Positions 1,681 to 63,258 of a stretch of 64,000 nt of DNA are shown piece after piece. Under the pieces are notes generated by a model. That model was not told where the DNA came from. It did no database searches and saw only the letters and a program-made list of their open reading frames with translations. Made by a program: the position numbers and the translations under genes. Source of the stretch: an uncultured Atopobium sp. (GTDB lineage Bacteria; Actinomycetota; Coriobacteriia; Coriobacteriales; Atopobiaceae); contig CALGXY010000105.1 in assembly GCA_937935155.1 (NCBI GenBank), forward strand, positions 3,500-67,499, written 5' to 3'. Every line of letters starts with the position of its first letter. The stretch's first letter is position 1.

Positions 1681-1813
1681 GTGTAATCCTTTCCTGTACA
1701 AACCTAAACGAGTTTGGAAACGTACGTCGTACTAAGAAAGAGCTCATCCACATTGTACAGATTCTTATGTACCGTCTGTGGCGAGAAACCCAAAACAAGT
1801 GCAAAAAGGCCGT

Positions 1814-2662
1814 TTACCCCTCAAACGCCTTATCAATTTTGCTGCGAACGTAGGTGGAAGCAAAGACAAGATCTTCTTTCCAGTTCTCGTTGCCGGTGTA
1901 CCACATCTCTGCAACAAAGCGCCTGACACCCTGAGGAACAAGCTGCGACAGAGCTCCCTCATAGTCAGTGGTGCCGGTAGAGAATGGAATCTCGCGATAT
2001 GCGCCAGCAACAGTCTCTTTAAGGTGAGCTGCAAAGATATGACCTGCACCAAGAGCAATATCGTCAGCAACGGTGTTGCCGTAAATAAACGATGCATTAG
2101 TAAGGTTACCAGCGTCGGGATACACACCAAGATACGGGCTATTGATAAGGCTTACATAGTGCATGGCCTTCTCGACCGTATCCATAAAAGGAGTCTCCAT
2201 GGTCTCAAAGCCCATAACAATGCCCGCCTGAGCAGCCATTTCTACAGCCTTTGCCAGATTTTCCTCAAAGTACTTGCGCGTATCCTCTGCGCCGTCCTCG
2301 TAGTACACATCATAACCAGCAAGCTGGATGGTATGAAGTCCCAGGTCACCTGCAAGGTCAAGCGCCTTCTGCATAATCTCAAGGCTACGCTCACGAGTAG
2401 CCTGATCGCGAGAACCAAAAGGATACTTACGATGACCAGAAAGGCACATAGAGCCCAGGCGAACGCCAGAGTTTACCATTGCCTGACGAACTGCTGCACG
2501 CTCCTCACCAGTCCACTCAAGGCGAGAAAGACGAGCGTCAGACTCATCAACGGAGATCTCAACATAATCAAAGCCAGACTCTCCTGCTACGCTGAGGCGC
2601 TCTTCCCAAGAAAGATCAGTTGGAGTGGCCTTCTCGTAAAGTCCTAGCTGATACTTGGACAT
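1814..2662 (-). CDS. ulaE: L-ribulose-5-phosphate 3-epimerase (L-xylulose-5-P 3-epimerase)
   Basis: LGLYEKA, EISVDESDARL, SMCLSGHRKYPFGS, IQLAGYDVYYE motifs. Confidence 0.95.
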   Translation of the reverse strand: MSKYQLGLYEKATPTDLSWEERLSVAGESGFDYVEISVDESDARLSRLEWTGEERAAVRQAMVNSGVRLGSMCLSGHRKYPFGSRDQATRERSLEIMQKALDLAGDLGLHTIQLAGYDVYYEDGAEDTRKYFEENLAKAVEMAAQAGIVMGFETMETPFMDTVEKAMHYVSLINSPYLGVYPDAGNLTNASFIYGNTVADDIALGAGHIFAAHLKETVAGAYREIPFSTGTTDYEGALSQLVPQGVRRFVAEMWYTGNENWKEDLVFASTYVRSKIDKAFEG

Positions 2663-2674
2663 ATCTTCTCCTTT

Positions 2675-2707
2675 TAAAAACAGGCGGCCTTATAAAAGAC
2701 CGCCTGA
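2675..2707 (-). terminator. Intrinsic terminator/attenuator between araD and ulaE
   Basis: CAGGCGG/CCGCCTG stem followed by a T-run on the minus strand. Confidence 0.5.
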
Positions 2708-2737
2708 CTGAAACTGATGCTACTCACTGAACAGGCT

Positions 2738-3439
2738 TTAGTGATTACCCTGTCCGTAGTAGGCATTTGGACCATGCTTGCGCATGTAGTGCTTGTCCTG
2801 AAGGTACTGTGGTGCCTCCTGGACCTTAGGGTTATTGAGCTCGGTGAGTGTTGCCATCTTAGCAACCTCCTCAATAACTACTGCGTGATACACAGCAGCC
2901 ATTGCGTCTTTACCCCAAGAGAAAGGACCGTGATTGTGAAGGAGCGTTCCTGGAACCGCAATGGGGTCCAAGTTAGCAAAGCCCTCAACAATAACGTTTC
3001 CGGTCTCAAGCTCATAGGCGCTTTCTACCTCGTCCTTGGTAAGGCTGCGTACGCAAGGAATGTCTCCGTAGAAATAATCTGCGTGTGTGGTTCCATAGCA
3101 AGGAATAGAGCGTCCTGCCTGTGCCCAAGAAACAGCGTGGGTTGAGTGAGTGTGAACAATTCCGCCAATCTTATCGCCCCATGCACGATACAAGCATGCA
3201 TGAGTTGGAGTATCGGAAGATGGGTTCATCTCACCCTCAACAACGTTGCCGTCTAGGTCGCAGATGACCAGATTCTCTGGGCTCAGCTCCTCATAGGAGA
3301 CGCCCGATGGCTTGATAACAAACAGGCCGCGCTCACGGTCAAGTCCAGAAGCATTGCCCCAGGTAAAGACTACCAGGCCATGCTTTGGCAGGTCCATGTT
3401 TGCTTCATACACTTCATCGCGAAGCTCTTTAAGCATCAT
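2738..3439 (-). CDS. araD: L-ribulose-5-phosphate 4-epimerase (AraD/UlaF)
   Basis: [39 protein letters not shown]. Confidence 0.96.
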
Positions 3440-3451
3440 AGAGACTGCTCC

Positions 3452-4570
3452 TTAGAGAACACTACGGAATGGAACGTTTGGCTCGTGATCGAAGCAATCA
3501 TGGAAGCCACGGTCGTGATGGTAAGCAAAGCGATCCTTATCCTGTGGATAGGTGTAGTGGCCGCCGACCTCCCAGAAGAATGGGTGGAACTTGTAGTCAA
3601 GGCGATCCTTACGCATATCCCAAAGAACCTTGATCTCCTGGACGTCTGCCTGGAAGTTAGTCCAAACATCGTGGTGAATTGGGATAACAACCTTGGACTG
3701 AAGAGCCTCAGCCATGCGGAGCATATCGGTTGCTTCCATCTTGTCCTGGATACCAATTGGGTTGCAGCCAAAAGCGCCAAAGCAGACATCTACGCCGCCA
3801 AACTCCTGAGCGATGTCTTTGCCGTGCTTAGCAAAGTAAATGGAGTAGTGAGAGTCACCGGAGTGATAGATGTTTCCACCAGGGGTGACAAAGAGGTAGT
3901 TAACTGCCTTCTCGTCCATGTCCATTGGGCACTTACCCCAGAGGTCTGGGCGGTTCTCAGAAGTATCAGTAGTGGTAACGATGATGGTGCGGTCAAAGGA
4001 ATCGTATGCAACGATCTCCATGTCCTTGACCTTGATGCGGTCGCCAGGCTTAACAACAATGCACTGCTCGCGTGGAACGCCCCAGCCAACCCAAATGTCA
4101 ACTGCATCCTTAGGACCAATAAAGGGAACAGGAATCTCTTTGCCATTCTCGTCAGTAGTGGTCATGTTGTTGTTAACAACGTGAGCTGCAAGCTCCTTGG
4201 ACATGTGGTCCTGGTGAATGTGAGTTACTACAACTGCGTCAAGGTTCTTGATAGCAAATGGATCAATAACAAAGGGGACGTTGCGCAGGTTTGGCTGCAT
4301 CTTACGAACGCCAGCCATGTTTGCCATCTGGTGACCAGGCTTCATGAGGCCGTCACCGTGGGTGCGCTTACCATTGCCTGCCCAGAAGTCGACAGCAACG
4401 TTTGCTCCACCAGGAGTCTTAAACCAAATACCAACGCAGCCGAGCCACCACATCTCAACCTGGCCTGGCTCTACTACGGCATTGTCAATCTCTTCGTTGA
4501 GCCAAGTTCCCCACTCAGGGAAGGTGCTCATAATCCAACTGTCGCGTGTGACGTCTTTCAAACCTGCCAT
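3452..4570 (-). CDS. ulaG: L-ascorbate-6-phosphate lactonase (metallo-beta-lactamase fold)
   Basis: [43 protein letters not shown]. Confidence 0.96.
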
Positions 4571-4694
4571 TACGCGCTCCTTTCTAAAACATAGGACTAG
4601 TACTTTGATGTATACGCAGGTAAATTGAGCGGCGCTCAGGACTTTGCCTGCATGCTCAGAAGCTCATCCTGAGCGCTCGCTACAAAACGCAGCC

Positions 4695-5750
4695 CTACTC
4701 CACTACTTTGTAGAGAGCCAGCTGGTCTGTCTCACGATATGCAGCAACAATGTACTCACTGCCGTCATGCGTATACACCATGCAGTTTGCTGGTCCGAGG
4801 TCGTGGTCGATAACGTCTACGGTGTACTCACCGTCAACGTATCTAACAAGCAACAAATCGCGACCATCTTTACGGTTGCCAATGACTGCGCACTTCTCGC
4901 CATTAAGGTCTGCTGCCCAAAGCGCGTGAAGGAAGCTGCGCTTCTGTGGGTCGCACCAAACCTGCTCATAGCGATCGCGAGTCTGGCCCTCATGCCAAAT
5001 TGCCAGCGTGTCACCGTGGAACTTAGAGAAGGTAAGGATCTCCAGCTTGCCATCGCCGTCAAAGTCTGTAGCAACAATATCGCTTGTTGGCTGGACTAGA
5101 AGGCAGGTGACATCCCAAGCACCTTGAGGGGTGGTTGGTGGCACATATCTAAACACGCCTGCGGCGGTTGAGATCAAAGCATACGATTTGTCAGGTGCAG
5201 TCCAGAAACCGTGATTCTGAACCTGATAATTAGCAACACAGGTCAGCTTAAGCTGGTTGTCTGCCGTGTACTGCTCAAGGTTATCGCTCAGAGGAGCGGC
5301 CCAAACAGCACCTGGAGTGCGCCAATCGTCCTTGACGCTAGTCTCAGCTCCACCCTTGATAGAGCAAGCAAGAACCCAAAGCTGACCGTCAGCAGCCTTC
5401 AAGATGCCAAAACGGTGAACATACGGGAGGTCACAGAGAATCTGCTCAGACCAAGAACCGTCTGCCTGCTTGGTATAGGATGCAATTGCCGCGTCGTCTC
5501 CACCAAAGTTTGGCGAGAAGAACTTGCGGGTTGCAAGGAACTGATCTTTCCTGCCAGGGACCTGTGTAATGGTCATGACGCCGCCAGGGCCTGGAGCAAC
5601 AGTCTCCAGAGGCTCACCATCAAGCGTAAAGCGACGGATTGGACCGTCCTTCTCGACAGCAGCTAAAAAGCTTGGTGTGTCTTCTCCCTCAAACATGCCA
5701 AGTGCATAGCACTTAGGCATCTCGGCAAGAATTTTCTTTTCAAAAGTCAT
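4695..5750 (-). CDS. Hypothetical cytoplasmic protein, probable beta-propeller with FG-GAP/VCBS-like repeat
   Basis: 351 aa ORF inside the operon; DFDGDGKLEI and ADLNG motifs; no signal peptide seen. Confidence 0.75.
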   Translation of the reverse strand: MTFEKKILAEMPKCYALGMFEGEDTPSFLAAVEKDGPIRRFTLDGEPLETVAPGPGGVMTITQVPGRKDQFLATRKFFSPNFGGDDAAIASYTKQADGSWSEQILCDLPYVHRFGILKAADGQLWVLACSIKGGAETSVKDDWRTPGAVWAAPLSDNLEQYTADNQLKLTCVANYQVQNHGFWTAPDKSYALISTAAGVFRYVPPTTPQGAWDVTCLLVQPTSDIVATDFDGDGKLEILTFSKFHGDTLAIWHEGQTRDRYEQVWCDPQKRSFLHALWAADLNGEKCAVIGNRKDGRDLLLVRYVDGEYTVDVIDHDLGPANCMVYTHDGSEYIVAAYRETDQLALYKVVE

Positions 5751-5779
5751 TAAAGTGCTCGATTCTTTAGAAACCTAAA

Positions 5780-6088
5780 CTATGCGGAATACTTCTCTGC
5801 AGCGCCGGTTTCCTTGAGCTTCTCTTCCATCTCTGCGTCAGAAAGAACGTTACGCAGACCAATGACGGTAACGCCTGCCTTAGCGGCATCGTCATACATG
5901 TTCAGGAAGTTAAGTGGTGCAAAAACAATGTCATACTGACGAGCAGAGCTTACGCCCTCGGAAAGTGCGCAGTGGTGAATCTTATCGACGCCCATGTTGA
6001 GCTTCTGAGTAACACGCTCAGCGGTCATCTTCATCATCAGGGAGGTACCTGCGCCATTTGCACATGCGACCAAAATCTTTGCGTTCAT
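5780..6088 (-). CDS. ulaB: PTS ascorbate-family IIB component
   Basis: ILVACANGAGTSLMM phospho-Cys loop; start at MNAK after AAGGAG. Confidence 0.9.
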   Translation of the reverse strand: MNAKILVACANGAGTSLMMKMTAERVTQKLNMGVDKIHHCALSEGVSSARQYDIVFAPLNFLNMYDDAAKAGVTVIGLRNVLSDAEMEEKLKETGAAEKYSA

Positions 6089-6253
6089 GTTGACTCCTTC
6101 GATCAAACAAACTGATTACGGACACATTGTGTTTGTACCCATTTGGGCGCTACAACGCTCGCATTTAAAGCAAATACTGCATCAAACAATGTGCCGAGTA
6201 TTACTAATAACCCTGAGCAGATGGGGGTCTGCTCAGGGTAGGAAGAAAGAGGG

Positions 6254-7765
6254 CTACTTGCTTTCCGCACTAGCTGCGGCGGCCTTCTGTGCACGGATTT
6301 CCTTGCACTTCTGGTAATCCTCAACCTCCATGAAGTACGTGTCTTTGTTTGCACGGTACTGGAGCTGTGGGATTGCAATAAGAGCAATAACAACAATTGC
6401 GAGACCTGCGTAGGACAGGAACTTCATGAGGCCGGTCATGATTGGCCAGACAACTGCCCAGTCCCACATGCCAAGGTATCCACCGTATGCAGCCATGCCA
6501 ACCCAGCCAGCGATAAGAGCTGAACCAAAGACCTGGAGAAGACCAGAGATGAAAGGCATGATAAGAACTGCGCGGAGGCCACCCTTGTTGTTTGCGTAAA
6601 CGCCGATAGTAGCGTTATCGAAGAACAGTGGGACAAAGCCTGCGATAACAATAACTGGGGACTTCAGAAGCAGCAGAGCTGCGATTGCCAGGAACTGGCC
6701 AGCTGCACCCATGAGGAAGCCGAGGGTAACTGCGTTTGGAGAACCAAAGCCGTAGGTAACAGCGCAGTCAACGCCTGGGACGGAACCCTTGAGGAGCTTG
6801 TTAGAAATACCCTGGAAGGAGTTGGTGAGCTCGGTAACGAAGGTACGAACACCAAGCTGCAGGATGGAGAGGTAAACAGCAAACTGGAAGGAAGTGGTCA
6901 TGATGTAGAAGAAGAAATCCTGACCTGGCTTCATGAACTTGTTCTCAAGCAGGAACTCCTGACCAAGAACAGCAAGGATGACACCAAAGAATGCTGTCAT
7001 GAGAATTGCAGTTGCAACGAGGTTCTCGTTGAAGATCTTAAGGAAGCCTGGAAGCTCGATGTCCTCAATGCGCTTAGACTCCTTCTTGGAGTGCTTGGCG
7101 AGCCACTCGGAAGCCTTGGATGCGCAGTAAACACCAAACATCTGCTGGTGAGCAATGGTAAGGCCAGCGCCATCAGTAAGGTCCTGGGTAGGTCCAATAC
7201 AAAGGTTGGAACCAACTGCCCAGTAAAGGCCAAGGAGAACGGTCATAACTGCAAGGATGGTAACGTCGTTAAGCTGTGGGAAGCAGAAGAGGATAAGCCA
7301 AAATGCAGTTGCTGCCTGCTGAACCTGGACGTGACCAGTAGTAAAGATTGCGCGAAGCTTAGTCTGCTTCTTAAAAGCAACCAGAACAATGTTCAGAATG
7401 AAAGCGAAGAGCAGAAGAAGCATAACGGAGGAGAAGGAACGACCTGCGATAAATGCAGGAGCGTCAGCTGCCTCCATGCCTGCCTGTACTGCGTTCTGGC
7501 CAAAGTATGGGTCAATGACCATTGCAGAAAGGTTGAAGCGAGCCTGAAGTCCAACAAGAACTGGACGGAATGCAGTTACCAGGCCGCCGGAACCAACCAG
7601 GAGGATCTGATAACCAATGACTGCCTTAAGGAAGCCAGCGAGTACGTCGTACCACTTCTTCTTAAGAAGAATGTAGCCGATAGCAACAATCAAACCGATG
7701 AAATAGGCTGGCTGAGTCAAGAAGTTGCTCGCAAACCATTTCCAAATACCAAGAACAATATCCAT
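6254..7765 (-). CDS. ulaA: PTS ascorbate-family IIC permease
   Basis: Polytopic; TTGHVQVQQA, IAHQQMFG, GVRTFVTEL, PLFFDNA. Confidence 0.93.
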   Translation of the reverse strand: MDIVLGIWKWFASNFLTQPAYFIGLIVAIGYILLKKKWYDVLAGFLKAVIGYQILLVGSGGLVTAFRPVLVGLQARFNLSAMVIDPYFGQNAVQAGMEAADAPAFIAGRSFSSVMLLLLFAFILNIVLVAFKKQTKLRAIFTTGHVQVQQAATAFWLILFCFPQLNDVTILAVMTVLLGLYWAVGSNLCIGPTQDLTDGAGLTIAHQQMFGVYCASKASEWLAKHSKKESKRIEDIELPGFLKIFNENLVATAILMTAFFGVILAVLGQEFLLENKFMKPGQDFFFYIMTTSFQFAVYLSILQLGVRTFVTELTNSFQGISNKLLKGSVPGVDCAVTYGFGSPNAVTLGFLMGAAGQFLAIAALLLLKSPVIVIAGFVPLFFDNATIGVYANNKGGLRAVLIMPFISGLLQVFGSALIAGWVGMAAYGGYLGMWDWAVVWPIMTGLMKFLSYAGLAIVVIALIAIPQLQYRANKDTYFMEVEDYQKCKEIRAQKAAAASAESK

Positions 7766-7929
7766 TGATACCCCTTTCAAAGGGTCCTACATACGTACCT
7801 TCTGCAGCCCACACTACAAAAGGAAAACTTCAATTACGTGCCCAAACAGGCACAAAAGCGCGCACAGGCGCAAACGGGCGTCGTGAACGACGTGCGAACA
7901 ACGCGCGAACAACGCGCGAGAAAACGTGT

Positions 7930-8388: not shown

Positions 8389-8399
8389 GCGATTCACTC

Positions 8400-8880: not shown

Positions 8881-8881
8881 C

Positions 8882-9646: not shown

Positions 9647-9774
9647 AACTGCTACGGCTACGTGCGTCGGACGACGAGATTCAGCTTCAATCGAATGTTT
9701 CCACTGCTGTAGTCCATCGGTTCTCTCGCCCAGCATAGAAGACATCAAAATTTTAACTACCATGATACGAAAAT

Positions 9775-10038: not shown

Positions 10039-10062
10039 TGACAGCGCCAACGCTATCCAAAC

Positions 10063-10090
10063 AAAAAGCCCCGCCAACTGGCGGGGCTTT
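10063..10090 (-). terminator. Intrinsic terminator downstream of yebC
   Basis: AAAGCCCCGCCA-loop-TGGCGGGGCTTT stem with T-run on the minus strand. Confidence 0.85.
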
Positions 10091-55478: not shown

Positions 55479-55494
55479 GGTAGAAGTTGTTGTT

Positions 55495-57531
55495 TTAGTC
55501 ACGAGAAACACCGTCCTCATCAGTTGTCTTTGTGGCGTCTTTAGTGGAGCTGACGTCGTCGCTTTTCTCGTCATCGTCTGCAGCGTCCGCAGCAGCGTTC
55601 TTCTTGGTAGTAGCGTTGTCTGCAACCTCAGCGGCAGCCTCTTCCTGGTGCGCCAAAACGCGCTCGAGGATGAACTTACCTGCGGCTTCTCCACCGTGGC
55701 CGAGATTAAAGATCATGTTGTTACGAATCTCTTCAATCTTGTGCGACCAGCTATCGGTTTCCTCCAGCATCTGCGCAACCGCGTCGCCAAGGCCCGAGAG
55801 GTCCTTAGGATCAAAGCTGCGGCCAATCTCATTTCTGAGTGTAATGTCGCATGGATCCGAATGAATCTTGCTCCAGTCAGGGTTGTTCTCCTTCATCGCG
55901 GTGTCAATGAAGACCGACGGCTTGAGCGTGGTAAACGAGAACTCCTCAGCAACACTCGACCAGTCAGTAAACAGCAGGTCAGCCGAGAGAACCGAAGTAT
56001 TGGAGCTGAAGTCGGTCTCAAAGGAGAGCTCCTCTGGGTCCGCGTCAGCGTAGCGAGCAAGAATCTCCTCCATACGGGCAGGATAGCGCTTCAAATACTC
56101 TGGGTGTGGGCGGACCACAATGCGCCAGCCGCGGCCCATGAGCTGCTCAAGCAGGCCGTCAAGGCAGCTGTCCATCAAGTTGTCGTACTGCCACGAAGGA
56201 CCAATCAGCAACAGGGGTTTCTCGCCAGGTTTGCGCTGGCCCAGATTCTGCTTCTGGTAGTTTTTGATTGACCTATCGAGAAGATCGTAGCCAATAGCAG
56301 GCTTTCTCTTGGATGGCGTACCGTAGTACTTCTCGACCAGCTCAAGATCATGCTGCTGATGAGGGCCAACGCAGAGGACGTCGTCGTAGTAGGTGTACTC
56401 GTTGCGCGTTGAGGTAACCGTCATGGAAGTCATGTGGTGGCACATATACATGTACTCAGCGTCTTTGCGCACGTAGGAGCGCTTCATGTAGGAGCTCTCC
56501 AGGTCGCCGAGGGAAGTTACCACAACATCAGCGTCGAGCTTCATGAAAAGCGTGATAAGGCGACGCTGACCCAAGTAATACGGAATCAGGCGAGGCTGCT
56601 GTTTTGCCAGTTCAAAGACCTGGTCGTTAGGGTCAGAGGTGACATAGTGGATACGAATGTCAGAGTTTGCCAGCAGCCACTCGATGGCGCCCTGGAAGTA
56701 CTTGTAGAAGCCGCTTGACTCGGAATAGAAAACCAGGTGCTTGCCGATGGTGTCAAAGAAGCGCTTGTAGTCCTCTTTTTCGCGAGCGGCATGAGGATCG
56801 CGCTGGAACCACTTGTGAGTGGACTTGGTTGCTGCGTCCATTGCCTCAAACTCGTCGCGAGCAGCATTGAGATCGTCGTAATCAACCTGCTTACGAGGGT
56901 CGATGATGATGTTGCAGACAATTTGGACCAGGATTGAGAGAAGGTTTGAGCAAACCCAATAGAATGCCATGCCACAGACAACGTAGACTGCAAGTACCAG
57001 CGACATTGCAATAGAAAGGCCGTTTGTGGTGTTCTTCTCTGCACGAGACTGCTCGCGCTGAAGCGGATTCAGCTTGTTGGAAGCAAGACCAAGAGCAACC
57101 GAGGACAAAGCTGCTGCCAGTGGCATAATCCAGGTGATACCGCCATCGATGATTGGGGTCATGCCCAAAAACTCTGTGCCAGGCGCACCAGAATCGGTGA
57201 TGCCATGGATAACGTCAACTAGGCCGAACAGGATGACTACCTGGATTGCCAGAGGAATAAGACTCAATAGCGGGTGATAGCCTGCCTTTTTGTTGAGCTC
57301 GTTGGAGCGCTCCTCGATGGTCTCCCTGTCGCCGAAGTAGCGAGTCTTTAAGCGGAAGGTCTCGGGCATAAGGCGCACCATAACAATAGAATTTTGTTGT
57401 GTCCAAAGTGCCAGAGGCATCAGGATGATTTTAGTTGCAAGAGTAAAAAGAAAGATTGCCGCCCACCAACTGCCGGTCAAGTCGTATGCGGGCTGAACGA
57501 TAAGTGAAAAAACGTGTGCAAGCTGCTCCAT
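55495..57531 (-). CDS. Fusion: YidC/Oxa1 insertase domain + CDP-glycerol glycerophosphotransferase (TagB/TagF-like) domain
   Basis: WWAAIFLFTLATKIILMPL, GYHPLLSLIPLAIQ, GMAFYWVCSNL; then GPSW, RPHP, TDWSSVAEEF. Confidence 0.85.
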   Translation of the reverse strand: MEQLAHVFSLIVQPAYDLTGSWWAAIFLFTLATKIILMPLALWTQQNSIVMVRLMPETFRLKTRYFGDRETIEERSNELNKKAGYHPLLSLIPLAIQVVILFGLVDVIHGITDSGAPGTEFLGMTPIIDGGITWIMPLAAALSSVALGLASNKLNPLQREQSRAEKNTTNGLSIAMSLVLAVYVVCGMAFYWVCSNLLSILVQIVCNIIIDPRKQVDYDDLNAARDEFEAMDAATKSTHKWFQRDPHAAREKEDYKRFFDTIGKHLVFYSESSGFYKYFQGAIEWLLANSDIRIHYVTSDPNDQVFELAKQQPRLIPYYLGQRRLITLFMKLDADVVVTSLGDLESSYMKRSYVRKDAEYMYMCHHMTSMTVTSTRNEYTYYDDVLCVGPHQQHDLELVEKYYGTPSKRKPAIGYDLLDRSIKNYQKQNLGQRKPGEKPLLLIGPSWQYDNLMDSCLDGLLEQLMGRGWRIVVRPHPEYLKRYPARMEEILARYADADPEELSFETDFSSNTSVLSADLLFTDWSSVAEEFSFTTLKPSVFIDTAMKENNPDWSKIHSDPCDITLRNEIGRSFDPKDLSGLGDAVAQMLEETDSWSHKIEEIRNNMIFNLGHGGEAAGKFILERVLAHQEEAAAEVADNATTKKNAAADAADDDEKSDDVSSTKDATKTTDEDGVSRD

Positions 57532-57974
57532 ATACAAACCTTCTACGAGAAACCTCTACAGAAGCCAATAAAACCTAAACCTAAAACCTGCAAAACCAAT
57601 GGAATTCATGAAAACTAAAAGAAAGCTACGACATCTCAAAGAAGTTTGTAGTATCTAAAGTTAACCTGAAGAAACCATTTGTGCATAACTAATTTATGGT
57701 ATCAAAAAACGCTATTTATCGGCAGTTTAAAGCGAACAATCAAAACGTAAAATCTTTAATTTGAATGGACAAAATTTATTCATAAATTGTTCTTTTTAAA
57801 ATCATTCTATAAAAGTTACGTAGGCAATTGTCTTTCTCGTTAATCAAAATTTAACCCCTGAAATGGCATTTTATTTGATTTTGGGGTTGCAATCGCGGTT
57901 CTGCTGGCTAAAATACTCTCCATGTTATTTTTAATATTCGGCGCATTAGAGCGCTTTTGAAATGAGGAGATTCT

Positions 57975-58784
57975 ATGCAGGCTAATCTGCAGGAGCTAAA
58001 AGAGACCTATTCGCGGCAGACGTATAGTGTGTTTTCGATCAACCGCCAACAGAAGATTGCTGACTCCCAAGTTACCTTTTCGCTTGCTCATTCTGTTTTC
58101 ATCATTCCTGTTTTTGGAGCTGCCGAGATTACTATTGGTGGAAATGAATTTGTCTGCGAAGGAACTACGGTTGTACATGTTCCTGCAGGTCAGACAGTAA
58201 CATATCGAACCCTTTACGGACGCTCGTTTGACCATGTAAACATCTACTATGATGGCATTCAGGGCGATGTCACCAGCCCAATCTTCAATGCCTATGCATT
58301 TGATCCTCAAGGATTCGACCGCATTCTTGATAAGGTGCTTGACCTGGAAAAACTTAACACCACCCCATCGCTGGACAATCGTGTTGCTCAGATTGTCAAT
58401 GGCACCGAGCTCATCAAGTCTATGTTCCTACTCACCAACAGCCAAAAGGTTCAGGAGAGCATGGCCGAGGCTCGCACGTATATTGAGCTCCACTTTGCAG
58501 ATCCAATTACCATCCCTGGCCTGGCTAAACGTTGCGGAATGAGCACTCAACGCTTCTCCAACAATTTTGTCCAAACATTTGGCGTTCGCCCAATGACATT
58601 CATTATTGCAAAGCGTCTTGATCATGCTCAACAGCTACTTCAATCTGGTCTTTCTGTGCGAGAGACTTCCGAGGCGGTTGGCTATAGCGATCCGTTCTAT
58701 TTCAGCAGACTATATAAGAAGCACATGGGCGTCACGCCTCAGGATGTTCATGACAGCTATGAAGGAAACGTCCTGATTAAGTAG
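57975..58784 (+). CDS. AraC family transcriptional regulator
   Basis: Cupin-like N-domain; LSVRETSEAVGYSDPFYFSRLYKKHMGVTP. Confidence 0.94.
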   Translation: MQANLQELKETYSRQTYSVFSINRQQKIADSQVTFSLAHSVFIIPVFGAAEITIGGNEFVCEGTTVVHVPAGQTVTYRTLYGRSFDHVNIYYDGIQGDVTSPIFNAYAFDPQGFDRILDKVLDLEKLNTTPSLDNRVAQIVNGTELIKSMFLLTNSQKVQESMAEARTYIELHFADPITIPGLAKRCGMSTQRFSNNFVQTFGVRPMTFIIAKRLDHAQQLLQSGLSVRETSEAVGYSDPFYFSRLYKKHMGVTPQDVHDSYEGNVLIK

Positions 58785-58872
58785 CTGTCGTTTAAGACTG
58801 CCTGTTGCTACTTGCAGAAATTACTTGCCCAATTACTTGTGGCAAAGCTGGTCGCAGGTTTTATTGCAAATC

Positions 58873-58906
58873 AAAGGGTTAGAACGTTCCGCTCTGACCC
58901 TTTTTT
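58873..58906 (+). terminator. Intrinsic terminator downstream of araC-family gene
   Basis: AAAGGGTTAGA...TCTGACCCTTTTTT. Confidence 0.8.
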
Positions 58907-58924
58907 GCATAATCCGGTTGTAAT

Positions 58925-59124
58925 ATTCATTTCCATGAATACGTAATTTTTGCGCTCAAAATTATGTGCCGAAAAAGGTAAAAAATGCGTTTAGTTGGAA
59001 ATGAAAATTGAAAATTAGACGTTTTATCTCCAACTAAGACGATTTTTTACCGCCTCAAAAACTTTTATCTGGGCAAACGTTGTATGCAGAAAAATGAAAT
59101 CTCCAACTAAACGCATTTTTTACC
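58925..59124. repeat. Mosaic intergenic repeat element, copy 3 (different 23-mer, same layout)
   Basis: ATTCA-N6-TGAAT at 58925-58940; perfect 23-bp inverted repeat 58977-58999/59102-59124 plus a degenerate copy at 59029-59051. Confidence 0.85.
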
Positions 59125-59245
59125 ACTTGGAGACTTATTCGAGTGATTCGCGAAGGATCTCTGCATCCACCGCCCCCCCTATCAGCCGTCTATTGCCATT
59201 CTTCGAGCAACTCTTGCACGGAGCCAGTGCAGTTTCGCAGCACAA

Positions 59246-59277
59246 AAAATCCCAGCACCGCTAGGTGCTGGGATTTT
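59246..59277 (-). terminator. Intrinsic terminator downstream of kdgT
   Basis: AAAATCCCAGCACC-GCTA-GGTGCTGGGATTTT. Confidence 0.9.
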
Positions 59278-59299
59278 ACACTTGAAACTTTAAGGGCAA

Positions 59300-60295
59300 T
59301 TAAGCAGACTCAACAACTTCCTCTGAAGTGTTGTCCTTCTTAGCAAAGTGCTCAGCAACATAACCAGTAATCAAAGGAGTCAGGATTGCAGTAACGATAA
59401 CTGCAGCTGCTACCTGTGCATTTGCTGTTGCAAGAGCAGCGCCGCCATACAGGGCTGGGTTTGCCTCTGCCATAGCAGCAGGTGTAAGTGCATTTGCACC
59501 TGCGCAGGAAGAAATAGCAACACCAGCAATACCAGTTCCGCCAGTTGCGCGATCAACAAAGTAGTTGATAAAGCCACCGCAGACGGAGCAGATAACGCCA
59601 AGCAGAATACCTGCAGGACCAGCCATAATGAGAGAATCAAACTTCATGGTTGTGCCCATAGCAAAGAAGGTCATGACAATAATTGCTGGCAGAGCGCTTG
59701 TGAGCATCTTCTTCATAGATGGGAAGCAGTTGCCAAGCAGAATACCCAGGATAATTGGGAGAACTGCACCAAGCAAAGACCAGTTAATTGGAGACTGACC
59801 AGTTGCGCCAAGAGCAAGCATGGTAACTGGAGGGCCAACGACCAGCGTAGTAATTGCGACTGCGCCCTGCTCATACTCGTTACCATAATCAGCCATCAGT
59901 CCTGCATACATGGAGTTGTTTGCACCAGAGCAAGCAGCAAGGATGACCATGGAAGAAAGGCCAAGCAGGTTGTCGTTCAGGAAGAATAGAACTGCAAGAC
60001 CAAGAGCAACGCAGAACACAACCTTAGAGATGATGATGATAGCGCCACGAAGAGCAGCCTTTGGTGCACTCTTAAACGAAATAGTTGCACCAACACACAA
60101 CATGAAAGCACCAACCAGAGCAGCAGTACCCTTAACGGTCATAGCTGCAGAAAAGCTACCAAGCGTTGGGAATACATCTGGGAAAAATGTGTTCATGAAA
60201 ACGCCAAGAAGCAGTGGTACCAGGATGTTTGCGCCTGGAATGCGACCCAGTGCCTTAAATGGGTGCTGAAGAGAAATTGGTTCTTTTGTAGCCAT
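59300..60295 (-). CDS. kdgT: 2-keto-3-deoxygluconate permease family transporter
   Basis: RIPGANILVPLLLG, NSMYAGL..YG, SSCAGANALTPA, TAILTP. Confidence 0.88.
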   Translation of the reverse strand: MATKEPISLQHPFKALGRIPGANILVPLLLGVFMNTFFPDVFPTLGSFSAAMTVKGTAALVGAFMLCVGATISFKSAPKAALRGAIIIISKVVFCVALGLAVLFFLNDNLLGLSSMVILAACSGANNSMYAGLMADYGNEYEQGAVAITTLVVGPPVTMLALGATGQSPINWSLLGAVLPIILGILLGNCFPSMKKMLTSALPAIIVMTFFAMGTTMKFDSLIMAGPAGILLGVICSVCGGFINYFVDRATGGTGIAGVAISSCAGANALTPAAMAEANPALYGGAALATANAQVAAAVIVTAILTPLITGYVAEHFAKKDNTSEEVVESA

Positions 60296-60305
60296 CAACA
60301 ATCAC

Positions 60306-61058
60306 CTAATCCATTACGATGCCGCCGTCGCAGTCGCCAACCTCACCGTTGACAAAGCTAGCAGCGTCGGAAGCAAAGAACAGTACCATCTGTGCAGGCT
60401 CAGATGCCTGTGCAGGACGGCCGAGAGGAATAATGCCTACGACCTTCTTGTACTTCTCCTCATCGTTGGAGAGTGCAGTGGTCATATCTGTAATGGTGAA
60501 GGATGGGCAAACAGCGTTACAAGAAATGCCGTACTTGCCGCCCTCTTTAGCGATAGCCTTGGTAAAGCCGTTCATACCAGCCTTAGAAGATGCGTAAGCA
60601 ACAGTACCAAGGAGGCCGCCGCCAATCTTGCCTGCAACGGAAGAAACGTTAACAATGCGAGCGCCGCCACGGTCAATAAAGTGCTGCCAGAGAGCGTGAG
60701 TTACGTTGTAGGTACCAGTGAGGTTGGTGTTGATGGTGTTGTTCCACTCTTTGTCGTCAACCTCGGTGAAAGGAACGGAGCTGATGCGACCAGCGCAGTT
60801 GATAAGAACGTTGACGTCGCCGCACTCCTCAAGAATCTGAGCAACGGTCTTCTTGACGCCCTCTGCGTCTGCAATGTCCATTGTGTAGAAGAAGTTACCC
60901 TCGCCAAGCTCCTCGACAAACTTGCGACCAGTGTCCTCGTGACGAGAGCAAACGATTACGTGTCCACCTCCAGCAACAATACCCTTGGAGATCTCAGCGC
61001 CAATACCAGCGCTTCCGCCTGTAACCAGAACCAGCTTACCTGTAAAATCGAATGCCAT
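60306..61058 (-). CDS. SDR family NAD(P)-dependent oxidoreductase
   Basis: TGGSAGIG, INCAG, NVSS, YASSK. Confidence 0.94.
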   Translation of the reverse strand: MAFDFTGKLVLVTGGSAGIGAEISKGIVAGGGHVIVCSRHEDTGRKFVEELGEGNFFYTMDIADAEGVKKTVAQILEECGDVNVLINCAGRISSVPFTEVDDKEWNNTINTNLTGTYNVTHALWQHFIDRGGARIVNVSSVAGKIGGGLLGTVAYASSKAGMNGFTKAIAKEGGKYGISCNAVCPSFTITDMTTALSNDEEKYKKVVGIIPLGRPAQASEPAQMVLFFASDAASFVNGEVGDCDGGIVMD

Positions 61059-61287
61059 GCTCTCTCCTTTTTTAACGAGCACAAACCATTAGGAAACAAA
61101 ATAAATTCTAGCCATATTCACATAATTTGCTATAGAAAAATTATTTTTGTTTCACAAATCCTATGGTAAATAAGCCAAAGGAAAATAATTTGCTTAAAAT
61201 GCGACATAAATGACACATTAAATTTCATGTTCAATCTTTTGGACATTTGTCTGCAAATCTAACCCTTTTTCTTTCCTCGTAAATCTC

Positions 61288-61311
61288 AAAAGTTAGACAA
61301 AGCTAACTTTT
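61288..61311. promoter_or_regulatory. DtxR/MntR-family (TroR/ScaR-like) operator
   Basis: AAAAGTTAG-ACAAAG-CTAACTTTT perfect palindrome upstream of a Mn/Fe ABC operon. Confidence 0.8.
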
Positions 61312-61439
61312 AGGAATACAATAGGGAGAGAAACCCGTTGAGCTCGTAGCTCCAAACACCTAACTCTTGGCTTCACGCTATCAGTTTCTTGCTTTCAGTC
61401 CCGTAGCTACCTGCTCTTATCTCTTTGAAGGAAGTCGCC

Positions 61440-62498
61440 ATGAAACATCGCTGCACACATAACTCAGTAGCTGCAAGTCTGCAACCGCGCACGAATCCGC
61501 GCCCAAACGCTGACTCACAGCCTCACTCCACCTGCAACCCTCTCCTATCCCGCAGGTCAGCGCTCACCTTGCTTGGCGCAAGCTCTGCGGCTACCATCGC
61601 TTCTCTCGCCGCATGTAGTCCACGCGATTCTGCTGTTAGCGCAGACGCCGCGCAAAACCAGAACTCTTCGGCTCCCCTCGTCTTGACCACCTTCACCGTC
61701 ATTCAAGACATGGCTTCTCGCGTTGCGGGCGAGTTTTGCCAGATAGAATCCATCACCAAAGCCGGTGCCGAAATCCACGACTACGAACCCACGCCCGACG
61801 ACCTTAAACGCGCGCAAAAAGCCCAGCTTATCCTCAACAATGGTTTGGGGCTTGAGCGCTGGTTTGAGCGCTTTGTTGCCGACTCGTCAGCACAGCGCGC
61901 TGACCTCAGCGAAGGCATCACCGTCATCCCCATCGCCGAGGGTGACTACCAGGGTCAGGCCAATCCGCATGCGTGGATGTCGCCCGCAAACGGCAAGATC
62001 TATGTCGAGAATATTGTCCGCGCGCTCAGCAACCTTGTCCCTGACCACGCCAAAGACTTCGAAGCCAACGGCGACGCATACAAAAAGGAGCTCGACAACA
62101 TCTCCTCTCACCTGATTGAGGAGCTTAGCACCCTGCCGGAGAGCCAGCGCACGCTTGTGACCTGCGAGGGAGCGTTCTCGTACCTGTGCCGCGACACCAA
62201 CATGAAGGAGCTCTACCTCTGGGCCGTTAACGCCGCTGATGAAGGCACTCCGCAGCAGATTGCCAAGGTTGTCGAAGCTGTAAAAGCCCAGCAAATCCCC
62301 GCAGTATTCTGCGAATCCACGGTAAGCCCCAAGGCAATGCAACAGGTAGCCGACGAGACGGGCGCTGTCCTCAAAACTGACGAGAAGAACATCTTGTACG
62401 TAGACTCCCTCTCGGAAGCCGACGGCCCCGTTCCCACCTATCTTGACCTGCTGCAACACGACGCAGACGCAATCGTATCTGGTCTCATGGGAAGGTAA
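61440..62498 (+). CDS. Mn/Fe ABC transporter substrate-binding lipoprotein (SitA/MntA type)
   Basis: SRRS..LAAC signal; EIHDYEPTP, NPHAWMSP, TCEGAFSYL, YVDSL. Confidence 0.93.
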   Translation: MKHRCTHNSVAASLQPRTNPRPNADSQPHSTCNPLLSRRSALTLLGASSAATIASLAACSPRDSAVSADAAQNQNSSAPLVLTTFTVIQDMASRVAGEFCQIESITKAGAEIHDYEPTPDDLKRAQKAQLILNNGLGLERWFERFVADSSAQRADLSEGITVIPIAEGDYQGQANPHAWMSPANGKIYVENIVRALSNLVPDHAKDFEANGDAYKKELDNISSHLIEELSTLPESQRTLVTCEGAFSYLCRDTNMKELYLWAVNAADEGTPQQIAKVVEAVKAQQIPAVFCESTVSPKAMQQVADETGAVLKTDEKNILYVDSLSEADGPVPTYLDLLQHDADAIVSGLMGR

Positions 62499-62505
62499 TT
62501 GTTCG

Positions 62506-63258
62506 ATGAATCTTTGTGTTTCGCAACTTTGTGCCTGGTACGAGAAAAAAGACCGCGAGAAACCCATCATTTATGACGTGAATTTCTCGCTTTCAACAGG
62601 AGATCTTTGCGCACTTGTTGGCGTCAATGGCGCCGGAAAATCTACGCTCTTCAAAGCATTGATGGACACCATCGCATGGGAGGGGTCACTTACTTGGGGT
62701 CAGCAACCTCTTTCACAGGCGCGCAAGCAGGGCAAAGTAGCCTACGTTCCTCAAACGGAGGCAATTGACGCGACGTTTCCGCTGCTCGTAAAAGACGTTG
62801 TTATGCAGGGAAGATATGTTCATCAGGGTTGGATGCGCATACCTTCCGCTCAGGACAAAGAGCTGGTTGCCCAGGCGCTTGAACGCGTTAACCTGGCCGA
62901 CCTTGCAGATCGTCCACTTGCCCAACTCTCGGGCGGACAAAGAAAGCGTGTTTTTGTGGCACGCGGAATAGCGCAAGCTGCTGAGCTGGTATTTCTCGAC
63001 GAACCGTTTGCGGGAGTAGACGCTCGCTCTGAGGCTATCATCACCGAACAGCTCAATAACCTCAGCAAAGAAGGCAAAACATTGCTCGTTTCAATTCACG
63101 ACATCAATTTGGCTCAGCAAAAATTCCCGCTCTGCCTGGTCATCAATAAAACCATAACCGCACAGGGCTCTTCAAAAGAAATTCTTTCTGGAGATGCCCT
63201 CCTGCAGAACCTTGGTATTTCCGAAGATACCCACATTGAGGAGGTGCTCCATGCCTGA
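62506..63258 (+). CDS. Metal ABC transporter ATP-binding protein
   Basis: GVNGAGKST, LSGGQRKRVFVAR, LDEPFAGVD. Confidence 0.94.
   Translation: MNLCVSQLCAWYEKKDREKPIIYDVNFSLSTGDLCALVGVNGAGKSTLFKALMDTIAWEGSLTWGQQPLSQARKQGKVAYVPQTEAIDATFPLLVKDVVMQGRYVHQGWMRIPSAQDKELVAQALERVNLADLADRPLAQLSGGQRKRVFVARGIAQAAELVFLDEPFAGVDARSEAIITEQLNNLSKEGKTLLVSIHDINLAQQKFPLCLVINKTITAQGSSKEILSGDALLQNLGISEDTHIEEVLHA

What the first reader, a model, noticed from the sequence alone, without database searches (positions are those of the whole stretch)
1781..62565. Dispersed 11-13 bp motif (TG)GCGAGAAACCC behaving like a DNA uptake sequence
Seen: ten exact GCGAGAAACCC copies, five on + (1781, 30300, 46856, 50112, 62555) and five on - (22018, 39460, 40632, 53316, 56215). 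Uniform-base expectation is 2x64000/4^11, about 0.03. The overlapping 9-mer GGCGAGAAA occurs at least 14 times (1780, 2521, 13901, 15316, 29901, 31370, 33818, 39479, 46855, 48033, 48764, 50111, 53319, 56218) against about 0.5 expected. Near-matches lie at 11092, 15784, 40615 and 39476. Copies occur in spacers and inside unrelated genes in more than one frame (E-K-P; E-R-E-T), so protein coding alone does not explain them. Established: Neisseria DUS and Pasteurellaceae USS are non-palindromic, strand-unbiased and present in CDS and spacers, whereas Chi and KOPS are replichore-polarised. Inference: a candidate uptake signal, or another genome-wide protein-binding signal, in a lineage where I know of none; a prepilin peptidase in the window is compatible with competence.
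Basis: partly seen in the sequence, partly recalled or inferred. Interest (0 to 1): 0.9.

Follow-up and report, generated by a model that had tools for sequence, protein, structure and literature searches.

The report
Genome-wide uptake-sequence-like DNA motif
A short DNA word, tGGCGAGAA(A/G)nnC, is scattered hundreds of times through this small oral actinobacterial genome and its relatives in the pattern known from the DNA uptake sequences of Neisseria and Haemophilus, which if confirmed would be the first such signal in a Gram-positive lineage.

Summary
GCGAGAAACCC occurs 10 times in the window (0.04 expected) and 142 times in the 1.53 Mb genome, 69 forward and 73 reverse. It is one form of a broader motif, tGGCGAGAA(A/G)nnC. 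The core GGCGAGAA occurs 748 times and is the most over-represented 8-mer. The excess survives Markov and synonymous-codon nulls. Copies lie in all six reading frames, and the 11-mer is about 6-fold denser between genes, mostly near gene 3' ends. Inverted pairs form terminator-like hairpins. There is no replichore polarity. Sites are far better conserved between species than other words.

Most species of the genus carry about 110 copies of the 12-mer. Record titles suggest Lancefieldella/"Atopobium". Two species keep only the core, and several other Atopobiaceae genera carry core dialects. The rest of the class does not.

ComEA, ComEC and DprA are present. A Tad/Flp pilus locus is present in the genus but falls in an assembly gap here.

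Best reading (about 0.5): a DNA-uptake-sequence-like signal spread by biased uptake and recombination. No uptake has been shown. An orientation anti-correlation between copies less than 1 kb apart is not predicted by that model, so an orientation-dependent protein signal remains open. I found no prior description in the held library.

The parts
1781..1791 (+). Exact GCGAGAAACCC, preceded by G (12-mer GGCGAGAAACCC from 1780). Lies between the transaldolase and aldolase genes; coding status ambiguous.
22018..22028 (-). Exact copy, intergenic. On its own strand it sits directly after a terminator-like hairpin with a T-run, between two - strand genes.
30300..30310 (+). Exact copy inside the asparaginase gene, sense strand, read S-E-K-P.
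39460..39487 (-). Two tandem copies 16 bp apart (exact GCGAGAAACCC 39460-39470 and GGCGAGAAATCC 39476-39487), in the convergent spacer between the DHH-family and Sir2 genes.
40615..40642 (-). Exact copy (40632-40642, read E-R-E-T) and a one-mismatch copy ACGAGAAACCC (40615-40625), both inside the CobW-like gene.
46855..46927 (.). Oppositely oriented pair in one spacer between two - strand genes: GGCGAGAAACCC on + (46855-46866) and GGCGAGAAGAAC on - (46916-46927).
50111..50122 (+). GGCGAGAAACCC inside the 582-aa gene at 48503-50251, sense strand, read G-E-K-P.
53316..53327 (-). GGCGAGAAACCC at the start of the choline-binding-repeat gene (52937-53368), read A-R-N-P.
56215..56226 (-). GGCGAGAAACCC inside the YidC-like gene (55495-57537), sense strand, read G-E-K-P.
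62555..62565 (+). Exact copy inside the ABC ATPase ORF (62443-63258), read R-E-K-P. An inverted core TTCTCGC follows 29 bp downstream.
232..48775 (.). Nineteen further copies of GGCGAGAARNNC. On +: 232, 2521, 5512, 11472, 14687, 31370, 45221, 48033, 48764. On -: 4890, 13898, 15313, 25684, 26735, 27897, 29898, 33815, 34262, 45689.
   Evidence: 26 matches in all against 0.34 expected
11092..61336 (.). One-mismatch copies of the 11-mer not listed above: 11092 + and 15784 - (CCGAGAAACCC), 61326 + (GAGAGAAACCC).
25096..25620 (-). Orphan short prepilin peptidase (174 aa, Peptidase_A24 only, TadV-like) in a low-GC stretch. It is the only type IV filament gene in the window.

Best explanation
The motif tGGCGAGAA(A/G)nnC has a strict core CGAGAA. 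One genus-subclade form is TGGCGAGAAACCC. I read it as a DNA-uptake-sequence-like signal of Lancefieldella and some other Atopobiaceae.

Inferred mechanism: a surface or pilus-associated DNA receptor prefers fragments that carry the word. This could be the Tad/Flp pilus with its minor pilins, feeding ComEA, ComEC and DprA, as in the actinobacterium Micrococcus luteus. Conspecific DNA is therefore taken up and recombined preferentially. Over time this bias drives the word to high density wherever it is tolerated: compatible codons in any frame, and above all spacers downstream of genes. There, inverted pairs have been co-opted as stems of intrinsic terminators.

Shown here:
- a DNA-level, strand-symmetric, lineage-specific and conserved over-representation;
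- hairpin pairs near gene 3' ends;
- dialects among related genomes;
- intact comEA, comEC and dprA, and a Tad locus in the genus.

Inferred only: that the word is recognised during DNA uptake, which protein reads it, and that drive rather than selection in cis maintains it.
For: **1. Real excess at the DNA level.**
- GGCGAGAA occurs 748 times against 86 under a third-order Markov model (z 71), the top of all 8-mers. The 12-mer occurs 116 times against at most 1.9 under orders 1-5.
- In the ORF-based CDS set, the 11-mer occurs 59 times sense and 26 antisense. Synonymous-codon shuffles give 1.4 and 0.6.
- All six frames are used.

**2. Specific recognition-like profile.** The 12-mer has 116 exact copies, while each one-mismatch variant has 26 or fewer. 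The six core positions are nearly intolerant of change. The flanks show no longer repeat.

**3. Strand symmetry without replichore polarity.**
- The 11-mer is 69:73.
- The per-contig imbalance is 87 against a null of 123 +/- 14.
- On 56 skew-oriented contigs GGCGAGAA is 256:271, while the control word AGGGGAG is 101:7.
- In the complete relative G024 the best two-arc polarity is 12 of 72, against a null of 20 +/- 4.

**4. Spacer and terminator bias.**
- 57 of 142 11-mers lie in about 10% non-coding DNA.
- The 8-mer is densest in convergent spacers: 49 in 30 kb, against 21 in 37 kb of divergent spacers.
- Close pairs are mostly in the '+-' configuration (28, against 4 '-+').
- 44 hairpin-like pairs were found, 31 of them intergenic, and several are flanked by A and T runs.
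- The motif words are the commonest stem 6-mers in a crude terminator scan.
- Kingsford et al. 2007 report the same configuration bias and tail-to-tail enrichment for Neisseria (PMC1852404, passages read).

**5. Lineage specificity with dialects.**
- 24 of 24 same-genus species carry 55-122 copies of the 12-mer. Of 16 genomes from other families of the order, 15 carry 0-1.
- G086 and G140 keep the core (about 300 TGGCGAGAA) but only 4-5 copies of the 12-mer.
- Other genera carry G-(G/C)-CGAGAAG-nn-C, or tGCCGAGAAG.
- Across the class, strong enrichment is limited to genera of this family.

**6. Sites are maintained.**
- Between genomes 95% identical, 149 of 162 8-mer sites are conserved, against 71.5% of other 8-mers.
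- Across 72% identity, 20 of 44 9-mer sites are conserved, against 7.2%.

**7. Machinery.**
- ComEC (813 aa), two ComEA-like HhH ORFs and DprA are intact.
- The genus has a Tad locus with CpaB-like, TadZ-like, TadA, TadB/C and Flp-like genes plus pseudopilin-like ORFs.
- The window holds a TadV-like peptidase.
- Flp-pilus-dependent transformation is described for M. luteus (PMC4322843; title and start of abstract only).
Against: - No uptake or transformation data exist for this lineage. My searches returned none.
- T2SSE and T2SSF genes are not found in this assembly. The homologous locus falls between two contig ends, so the gap could be missing assembly or a real loss.
- Com and Tad genes are present in 117-118 of 120 family genomes regardless of motif abundance. 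They therefore give no specific support.
- No receptor candidate was identified.
- Known uptake sequences occur only in Gram-negative families with type IVa pili (bioRxiv 10.1101/2025.10.24.684340, passages read). Gram-positive model species take up DNA without sequence preference (recalled).
- Neighbouring copies 100-1000 bp apart are preferentially in opposite orientation: 10 same against 45 opposite at 100-300 bp. Same-strand gaps under 1 kb number 98 against 151.5 +/- 9.8. An orientation-blind uptake tag does not predict this.
- Depletion in compositionally atypical DNA is modest, 9-fold against about 15-fold over expectation. G022 segments unaligned to G000 show none (0.41 against 0.47 per kb).
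- Only 37 of 309 crude terminator-like hairpins contain the core, a lower share than reported for Neisseria.
Confidence: 0.5

Rival explanations
1. The word is the recognition site of an orientation-dependent intracellular DNA enzyme or binding protein that acts genome-wide. Examples would be a Chi-like signal for a helicase-nuclease, or a self-marker read by a translocase. On this view it is selected to occur regularly in both orientations, and it has nothing to do with uptake.
For: - Same-orientation copies avoid each other within 1 kb, while opposite-orientation copies do not. This was replicated in G022 and G086.
- The strand balance per contig is tighter than binomial.
- Individual sites are strongly conserved.
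- The core resembles the GAGAAG-type words read by Gram-positive FtsK/SpoIIIE (recalled, not from a call).
Against: - All characterised Chi and KOPS/SRS words are replichore-polarised (recalled). This one is not, while a separate strongly polarised word, AGGGGAG (101:7), exists in the genome.
- The roughly 6-fold enrichment of the 11-mer in spacers, and hairpin pairs at gene 3' ends, are not Chi-like properties.
- No RecC was found. AddAB and AdnAB were not searched.
Confidence: 0.25
2. The word is primarily a favoured terminator-stem or hairpin sequence. The single copies in genes would be by-products, such as decayed half-sites or compositional echo.
For: - 44 close inverted pairs were found, 31 of them intergenic, and several are flanked by A and T runs.
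- Motif words are the commonest stem 6-mers.
- Copies are enriched in convergent spacers.
Against: - Only 88 of 1,381 GCGAGAA copies sit in such pairs.
- 85 of 142 11-mers lie inside ORFs, at about 40 times the synonymous-shuffle expectation and in both orientations.
- Single copies inside genes are conserved across 72% identity.
- The ACCC form is almost never paired: 2 close pairs.
Confidence: 0.08
3. The excess is a neutral consequence of a lineage-specific mutation or repair bias, or of codon and peptide usage. No reader of the word would then exist.
For: - The sense frame G-E-K dominates in genes (191 of 572 in-ORF 8-mers).
- Protein sequences themselves are somewhat enriched for compatible peptides: the synonymous null gives 2.0, against 0.2 for the codon-order null.
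Against: - The excess is about 40-fold over the synonymous null and is present antisense and in spacers.
- The C-to-T variant is not depleted, as very-short-patch-type repair would predict.
- Specificity extends over 12-13 bp.
- Sites are conserved far above background.
- Abundance differs about 9-fold within one genus, g34 (54 to 494 copies).
Confidence: 0.07
4. The copies are ends or remnants of a small mobile element of REP/MITE type, spread by a transposase.
For: Palindromic hairpin units of 25-40 bp recur in spacers.
Against: - Flanks beyond about 13 bp carry no information.
- Most copies are single and lie inside genes.
- No Y1 (RAYT) transposase was found in the genome.
- Positions are orthologously conserved across species.
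- The excess is even across the genome.
Confidence: 0.03

Closest known systems
Neisseriaceae DNA uptake sequence (DUS, AT-GCCGTCTGAA and dialects; receptor ComP minor pilin)
   Same: - Short, non-palindromic 10-13-mer, strand-symmetric.
- Hundreds of copies per genome, with a sharp exact-to-mismatch drop.
- Found in genes in several frames and enriched in spacers.
- '+-' inverted pairs form terminator stems, mostly in tail-to-tail spacers.
- Dialects among related taxa share an invariant core.
(Kingsford 2007 passages; Frye 2013 abstract start)
   Different: - Unrelated sequence.
- Gram-positive actinobacterial host with a Tad/Flp rather than a type IVa pilus; no ComP-like receptor identified.
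- Lower density of the long form (0.08-0.4 per kb, against about 0.8 per kb; the latter figure is recalled).
- A lower share of terminators carries the word (37 of 309).
- Uptake bias is not demonstrated.
Pasteurellaceae uptake signal sequence (USS, AAGTGCGGT / ACAAGCGGT types)
   Same: A strict core plus weaker flanking positions, two subclade types within one family, even strand distribution, and occurrence in genes and terminator pairs (passages of PMC1852404; bioRxiv 2025 preprint).
   Different: No AT-rich helically phased flanks are seen here. The phylum and the machinery differ.
Chi and KOPS/SRS (RecBCD/AddAB and FtsK/SpoIIIE guide words)
   Same: An over-represented, conserved 7-8-mer core in the core genome. 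Neighbour statistics suggest that orientation matters.
   Different: Those words are replichore-polarised and not spacer-enriched. This motif shows no polarity and is enriched in spacers.
Flp/Tad-pilus-dependent natural transformation of Micrococcus luteus
   Same: Same phylum. The gene set is the same: tad locus, comEA/comEC and dprA (PMC4322843, title and abstract start only).
   Different: No uptake sequence is reported for M. luteus, to my recall. Transformation of Atopobiaceae is not documented in the papers my searches returned.

Membership tests
DNA uptake sequences (DUS/USS class) | Short non-palindromic word, vastly over-represented genome-wide after compositional correction | tested here: met
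   8-mer 748 against 86 (M3), z 71, top of all 8-mers. 12-mer 116 against at most 1.9. Codon nulls.
DNA uptake sequences (DUS/USS class) | Equal on both strands, no replichore polarity | tested here: met
   69:73. Per-contig and skew-oriented tests. Complete relative G024.
DNA uptake sequences (DUS/USS class) | Present in genes and spacers, enriched in spacers, with inverted pairs as terminator stems | tested here: met
   57 of 142 non-coding. Convergent-spacer bias. 44 pairs, '+-' bias 28:4.
DNA uptake sequences (DUS/USS class) | Restricted to one lineage, with dialects among relatives | tested here: met
DNA uptake sequences (DUS/USS class) | Depleted in recently acquired DNA | tested here: inconclusive
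   9-fold against about 15-fold over expectation in the lowest-GC decile. No difference in segments unaligned between species.
DNA uptake sequences (DUS/USS class) | Host encodes a DNA uptake machine (type IV filament, ComEA, ComEC, DprA) | tested here: inconclusive
   ComEA, ComEC and DprA are intact. T2SSE and T2SSF are not in this assembly but occur in 6 of 6 other sampled species of the genus. The locus lies in an assembly gap. All of these genes are non-specific to motif-rich genomes.
DNA uptake sequences (DUS/USS class) | Cells preferentially bind and take up DNA carrying the word; a cognate receptor exists | not testable with these tools
   Needs uptake, competition and binding assays.
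Chi / KOPS-type polar guide words | Strong skew toward one strand per replichore | tested here: not met
   (positive control word AGGGGAG 101:7)
REP/MITE-type mobile repeats | Conserved unit longer than the core, extragenic, with a cognate transposase | tested here: not met
   No flank conservation. Most copies lie in genes. No Y1_Tnp.

The most novel reading that the evidence does not exclude
This is the first DNA uptake sequence system outside the Gram-negative Neisseriaceae and Pasteurellaceae. On this reading an actinobacterial (Atopobiaceae) uptake word is read through a Tad/Flp pilus and ComEA/ComEC route. It has genus- and subclade-level dialects built on the invariant core CGAGAA. Recognition would be orientation- or strand-specific, which would explain why copies alternate in orientation within 1 kb.
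Probability: 0.4. Interest if true: 0.9.

Novelty: new variant of a known kind. Interest (0 to 1): 0.8.

Why it matters
Uptake sequences are the only known genome-wide "species barcodes" that bias bacterial sex toward kin. So far they are known from two Gram-negative families. A third, independent case in a Gram-positive oral genus with a different pilus type would have several consequences.

- It would show that the phenomenon evolves repeatedly.
- It would give a handle for finding a new kind of DNA receptor.
- It would predict natural transformability, and hence genetic tractability, of Lancefieldella and Olsenella-like bacteria that are currently hard to manipulate.
- It would provide a sequence tag useful for binning and for tracing gene flow in oral and gut metagenomes.

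If the word is instead read inside the cell, it defines a new non-polar genome-wide signal whose reader is unknown.

Tried and rejected
**Hypotheses tested and rejected**
- Replichore-polar signal (Chi/KOPS). Rejected by three tests. A listing seemed to show 33 consecutive + copies in G127. A complete listing showed this was an artefact of truncation, with only moderate polarity in that weakly enriched genus.
- Longer repeat or mobile element. Rejected by the flank information content and the absence of Y1_Tnp.
- Codon or peptide artefact. Rejected by the synonymous and codon-order shuffles.
- Very-short-patch-type repair bias. The T variant is not depleted.

**Tests that did not discriminate**
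- Phyletic association with competence genes. ComEC (118 of 120) and T2SSE (117 of 120) are near-universal in the family.
- Accessory-DNA depletion, using G022 segments unaligned to G000. No difference was seen, but "unaligned" mostly reflects assembly gaps.
- Candidate receptor. Tad-locus ORFs of G022 and G086 were compared. The most divergent is a 154-aa membrane ORF at 27.5% identity. This is not evidence, and I did not pursue it.

**Searches that returned nothing useful**
- Viral contigs.
- Literature. No relevant paper came up for the motif strings, for Atopobium plus "DNA uptake sequence", or among the top 25 for Atopobium/Lancefieldella/Coriobacteriia plus transformation terms.
- Earlier-findings tool.

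**Method caveat**
- Gene and spacer classes rest on my own greedy set of ORFs of at least 80 aa (1,384 ORFs, 89.7% coding), not on an annotation.

Full report
**Observation**

The expectation is 0.04, and 0 of 100 dinucleotide-preserving shuffles reached 10. The fourteen GGCGAGAAA copies are also confirmed, against 0.54 expected. So are the four near-matches, each with one mismatch: there are 18 matches at up to 1 mismatch against 1.07 expected.

By arithmetic on ORF coordinates, four in-gene copies read x-E-K-P, one reads E-R-E-T and one reads A-R-N-P. Three copies are intergenic and one is ambiguous. The window is G000:C105:3500-67499 of a 1,532,084-bp assembly with 149 contigs, 48.3% GC and 98.5% marker completeness.

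**Genome-wide picture**

- The 11-mer occurs 69+73=142 times, the 12-mer GGCGAGAAACCC 116 times and the 13-mer with a leading T 98 times.
- Motif words are the commonest canonical k-mer at every k from 8 to 13, and tie for commonest at k=14.
- A logo built on the core shows tGGCGAGAA-(A/G)-n-n-C. The six bases CGAGAA are almost invariant, and C four bases after GAA is present in 78% of copies. There is no information beyond about 13 bp, so this is not part of a longer repeat.
- After GGCGAGAA the commonest tetramers are ACCC (116), GATC (63), GAAC (51), AAAC (39) and GACC (34).
- GGCGAGAARNNC occurs 606 times (0.40 per kb) and CGAGAARNNC 1,738 times (1.13 per kb). The window holds 26 copies of GGCGAGAARNNC against 0.34 expected.

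**Nulls**

- GGCGAGAA occurs 748 times against 86 under a third-order Markov model (z 71), the highest of all 8-mers. The 12-mer occurs 116 times against at most 1.9 under orders 1-5.
- I used my own greedy ORF set: 1,384 ORFs of at least 80 aa, 89.7% of the genome. This is a crude stand-in for an annotation.
- In that set the 11-mer occurs 59 times sense and 26 times antisense. Shuffling synonymous codons within each gene gives 1.4 and 0.6. Shuffling codon order gives 0.1 and 0.1. Thirty shuffles were run for each null.
- All six frames are used. The commonest readings are G-E-K (191), L-L-A on the antisense strand (84) and F-S-P (60).
- Across 229 windows of 5 kb, the 8-mer is 12-17 times above a local first-order expectation in every tetranucleotide-distance class. 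It falls to 9 times above only in the lowest-GC decile.

**Strand and replichore**

- The per-contig strand imbalance of the 8-mer (48 contigs, 545 copies) is 87, against 123 +/- 14 for random signs. That is more balanced than chance.
- Across the 27 contigs of at least 15 kb, motif skew does not correlate with GC skew (-0.11) or with gene-strand bias (-0.16), although those two correlate with each other at 0.78.
- On 56 contigs oriented by GC skew (1.11 Mb), GGCGAGAA is 256:271 and CGAGAA is 975:980. The same procedure finds strongly polar words such as AGGGGAG at 101:7.
- In G024, a one-contig genome of the same genus, the 72 copies of the 12-mer (34+, 38-) interleave. The best two-arc polarity score is 12 of 72, below all 500 permutations (mean 20.2).
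- Chi-like or KOPS-like polarity is therefore excluded.

**Where the copies sit**

- 57 of 142 11-mers and 176 of 748 8-mers fall outside or across the edges of ORFs, in about 10% of the genome.
- Spacer copies of the 8-mer favour convergent spacers (49 in 30,085 bp) over tandem spacers (82 in 72,840 bp) and divergent spacers (21 in 36,897 bp). A further 24 lie at contig edges.
- The median distance to a flanking gene's 3' end is 57 bp, and there is no orientation preference relative to the gene.
- Within ORFs the copies are spread evenly from 5' to 3'.

**Hairpins**

- Copies 60 bp or less apart are mostly in the '+-' configuration: 28, against 4 '-+' and 11 same-strand.
- Listing '+-' pairs of the 7-mer core at up to 45 bp gave 44 pairs, 31 of them intergenic. 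Typical examples are GGCGAGAAGAyC-loop-GrTCTTCTCGCC.
- Several pairs have an A-run before and a T-run after, which is the form of a bidirectional intrinsic terminator.
- This explains the GATC, GACC and GAAC forms and the conserved C: they extend the stem.
- A crude terminator scan of my own found 309 hairpin-plus-T-tail sites. Of these, 37 contain the core and 21 contain it on both arms. Among the 250 intergenic sites, 35 contain it. Motif words are the commonest stem 6-mers.
- Kingsford et al. describe the same pattern for Neisseria and Pasteurellaceae uptake sequences: hairpin pairs concentrated in tail-to-tail spacers and a preferred configuration (PMC1852404; passages read).
- A 2025 preprint restates that intergenic uptake sequences often form inverted repeats acting in termination, and that intragenic ones sit in permissive frames (10.1101/2025.10.24.684340; passages read).

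**An unexpected property**

- Beyond hairpin range, neighbouring copies are preferentially inverted.
- For the 8-mer, gaps of 100-300 bp split 10 same-strand to 45 opposite-strand (p 2e-6). Gaps of 300-600 bp split 23 to 41. There is no bias beyond 1 kb.
- Of eleven other frequent 7-mers unrelated to the motif, none shows a comparable excess of opposite-strand neighbours. The sub-word GGCGAGA does show one.
- The '+-' and '-+' configurations are equally common at these distances, and the pairs often lie in the same gene.
- Against random placement, same-strand gaps under 1 kb number 98 where 151.5 +/- 9.8 are expected. Nearest opposite-strand copies under 300 bp number 178 where 111 +/- 13 are expected.
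- The bias recurs for GCGAGAA at 100-1000 bp in G022 (67 to 108) and in the more distant G086 (72 to 103). The 100-kb samples from other genera are too small to judge.
- I have no shown explanation. It suggests that the two orientations act as separate signals.

**Relatives**

- Record titles of the genomes that hold the 14-mer CTGGCGAGAAACCC repeatedly are "Atopobium sp." MAGs and Lancefieldella parvula. The rest are single hits in unrelated taxa, as chance predicts in 596 Gb.
- Lancefieldella belongs to Atopobiaceae, Coriobacteriales, Actinomycetota. Assigning G000 to this genus is an inference.
- The 12-mer occurs 55-122 times in 24 of 24 other species of the genus. It occurs 0-1 times in 15 of 16 genomes from other families of the order, and 13 times in the sixteenth. 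Reversed-word controls give 0-1.
- In a family-wide draw of 120 genomes, four more species of the genus have 118-120 copies, but G086 and G140 have only 4 and 5.
- A 400-kb sample of G086 (52% GC) shows the same core at the same density: GGCGAGAA 181 and CGAGAAG 439. It lacks the ACCC ending, so its form is tGGCGAGAAGnnC.
- TGGCGAGAA is also strongly enriched in some other genera:

| Genus | Copies of TGGCGAGAA |
|---|---|
| g34 | 54-494 |
| g46 | 104-303 |
| g50 | 264-303 |
| g30 | 360 |
| g21 | about 195 |

- Many other genera have 6-60 copies. Controls mostly total 2-45 per genome.
- 100-kb samples from four motif-rich genomes (61-67% GC) give G-(G/C)-CGAGAAG-n-n-C in g34, g46 and g50. In g21 the form is tGCCGAGAAGgaC.
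- Across the class (100 genomes), GGCGAGAAG is strongly enriched only in g1 (331-537, against controls of 19-36) and g46 (969-1,088, against 63-73). One other family is mildly enriched, at about 2-8 times its control. The rest are mostly at about 1-2 times, and below their control in one family.

**Conservation**

- Over 342,650 aligned bp between G022 and G000 (95.0% identity), 149 of 162 8-mer sites and 23 of 25 12-mer sites in G000 are identical in G022. Only 71.5% and 62.8% of other words are.
- The two changed 12-mers had switched to the other permitted form: GGCGAGAAGAGC and GGCGAGAAGACC.
- Over 233,345 bp aligned with G086 (72.2% identity), 20 of 44 9-mer sites are conserved, against 7.2% of other 9-mers.
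- At the four alignable 12-mer sites, G086 has GGCGAGAAGAAC, GGCGAGAAGCGC, GGTGAGAAGCCC and GGCACAAAAGCC.
- Many sites therefore predate the split within the genus, and the dialect changed at existing sites.

**Machinery**

- The genome has an 813-aa ComEC ORF with a ComEA-like HhH ORF beside it, a second 253-aa ComEA-like ORF, and DprA.
- It has no T2SSE hit above cut-off and no T2SSF hit.
- T2SSE is found in 117 of 120 other family genomes, including 6 of 6 of the genus.
- In G022 the T2SSE gene lies in a Tad-type locus. The locus holds a SAF/CpaB-like gene, a ParA-like TadZ, a 450-aa TadA, TadB/C, a 62-aa Flp-like pilin with the G-x4-EY motif, and further pseudopilin-like ORFs.
- G000 contig C95 ends 163 nt into tadA, and contig C14 resumes 6.9 kb later. 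The locus is therefore unassembled or lost in this MAG.
- In G022 that 6.9-kb stretch is low in GC (40.7%) and has fewer motif copies (0.43 against 0.92 per kb).
- The window's 174-aa Peptidase_A24 ORF fits a TadV-type peptidase.
- ComEC is present in 118 of 120 family genomes. None of these genes tracks motif abundance.
- Tad/Flp-dependent transformation is described in the actinobacterium Micrococcus luteus (PMC4322843; title and start of abstract only).

**Interpretation**

The evidence establishes a DNA-level, strand-symmetric, lineage-specific and evolutionarily maintained word with terminator-forming pairs and dialects. That is the full in-silico signature of DUS/USS. I therefore put about 0.5 on an uptake-sequence-like function driven by biased uptake and recombination.

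The orientation anti-correlation, the non-discriminating machinery and the lack of any uptake data keep an intracellular, orientation-dependent reader at about 0.25. Terminator-only, mutational and mobile-element explanations are weak, for the reasons given under the rival explanations.

**Prior knowledge**

My searches found no paper relating these strings to a bacterial signal. None links Atopobium to uptake sequences. None of the 25 top hits for Atopobium, Lancefieldella or Coriobacteriia plus transformation terms is relevant. The library lacks most subscription journals, so this is not proof of absence.

Noticed in passing
G000 contig C105 about 69784-70240 (roughly 2.3 kb beyond the window's 3' end) and about 20 other loci, many at contig ends: A second repeat family: inverted pairs of ...ACTGCCTCCCATTT / AAATGGGAGGCAGT... 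26 bp apart. It has about 36 copies and often lies within 40 bp of contig ends, so it probably breaks the assembly. It looks like the ends of an IS or MITE.
   Followed up: partly
G000 genome-wide (56 skew-oriented contigs): AGGGGAG is extremely strand-polar relative to GC skew (101:7). It is a candidate KOPS/SRS-like word, distinct from the finding's motif.
   Followed up: no
window 20000-28000: A low-GC stretch (42.7-44.3%, against about 49% elsewhere). It holds TetR and HTH regulators, small unknown ORFs, the orphan A24 peptidase and PTH2. It has few motif copies and is possibly acquired DNA.
   Followed up: no
G000 contigs C95 (end) and C14 (end); L150 9612-16529: The Tad/Flp pilus locus of the genus falls exactly between two contig ends of this MAG. 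In G022 the missing 6.9 kb has 40.7% GC.
   Followed up: yes
Family genus g36 (G060, G089, G112, G130, G143, G156): These have the lowest motif counts of the family (4-18 TGGCGAGAA, at control level). The ComEC open frames found are also shorter (582-700 aa, against about 800 elsewhere).
   Followed up: no
G132 (genus g43): It carries 38 copies of the Lancefieldella-type 12-mer, although its genus otherwise has 0-3. It also has a PilB/PilT-type type IV pilus pair. This could be an independent dialect or a transfer.
   Followed up: no
   Followed up: no
window 52937-53368 and 28362-29324: A choline-binding-repeat protein and a GH25 lysozyme, which are cell-wall-associated proteins typical of Gram-positive oral bacteria.
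   Followed up: no
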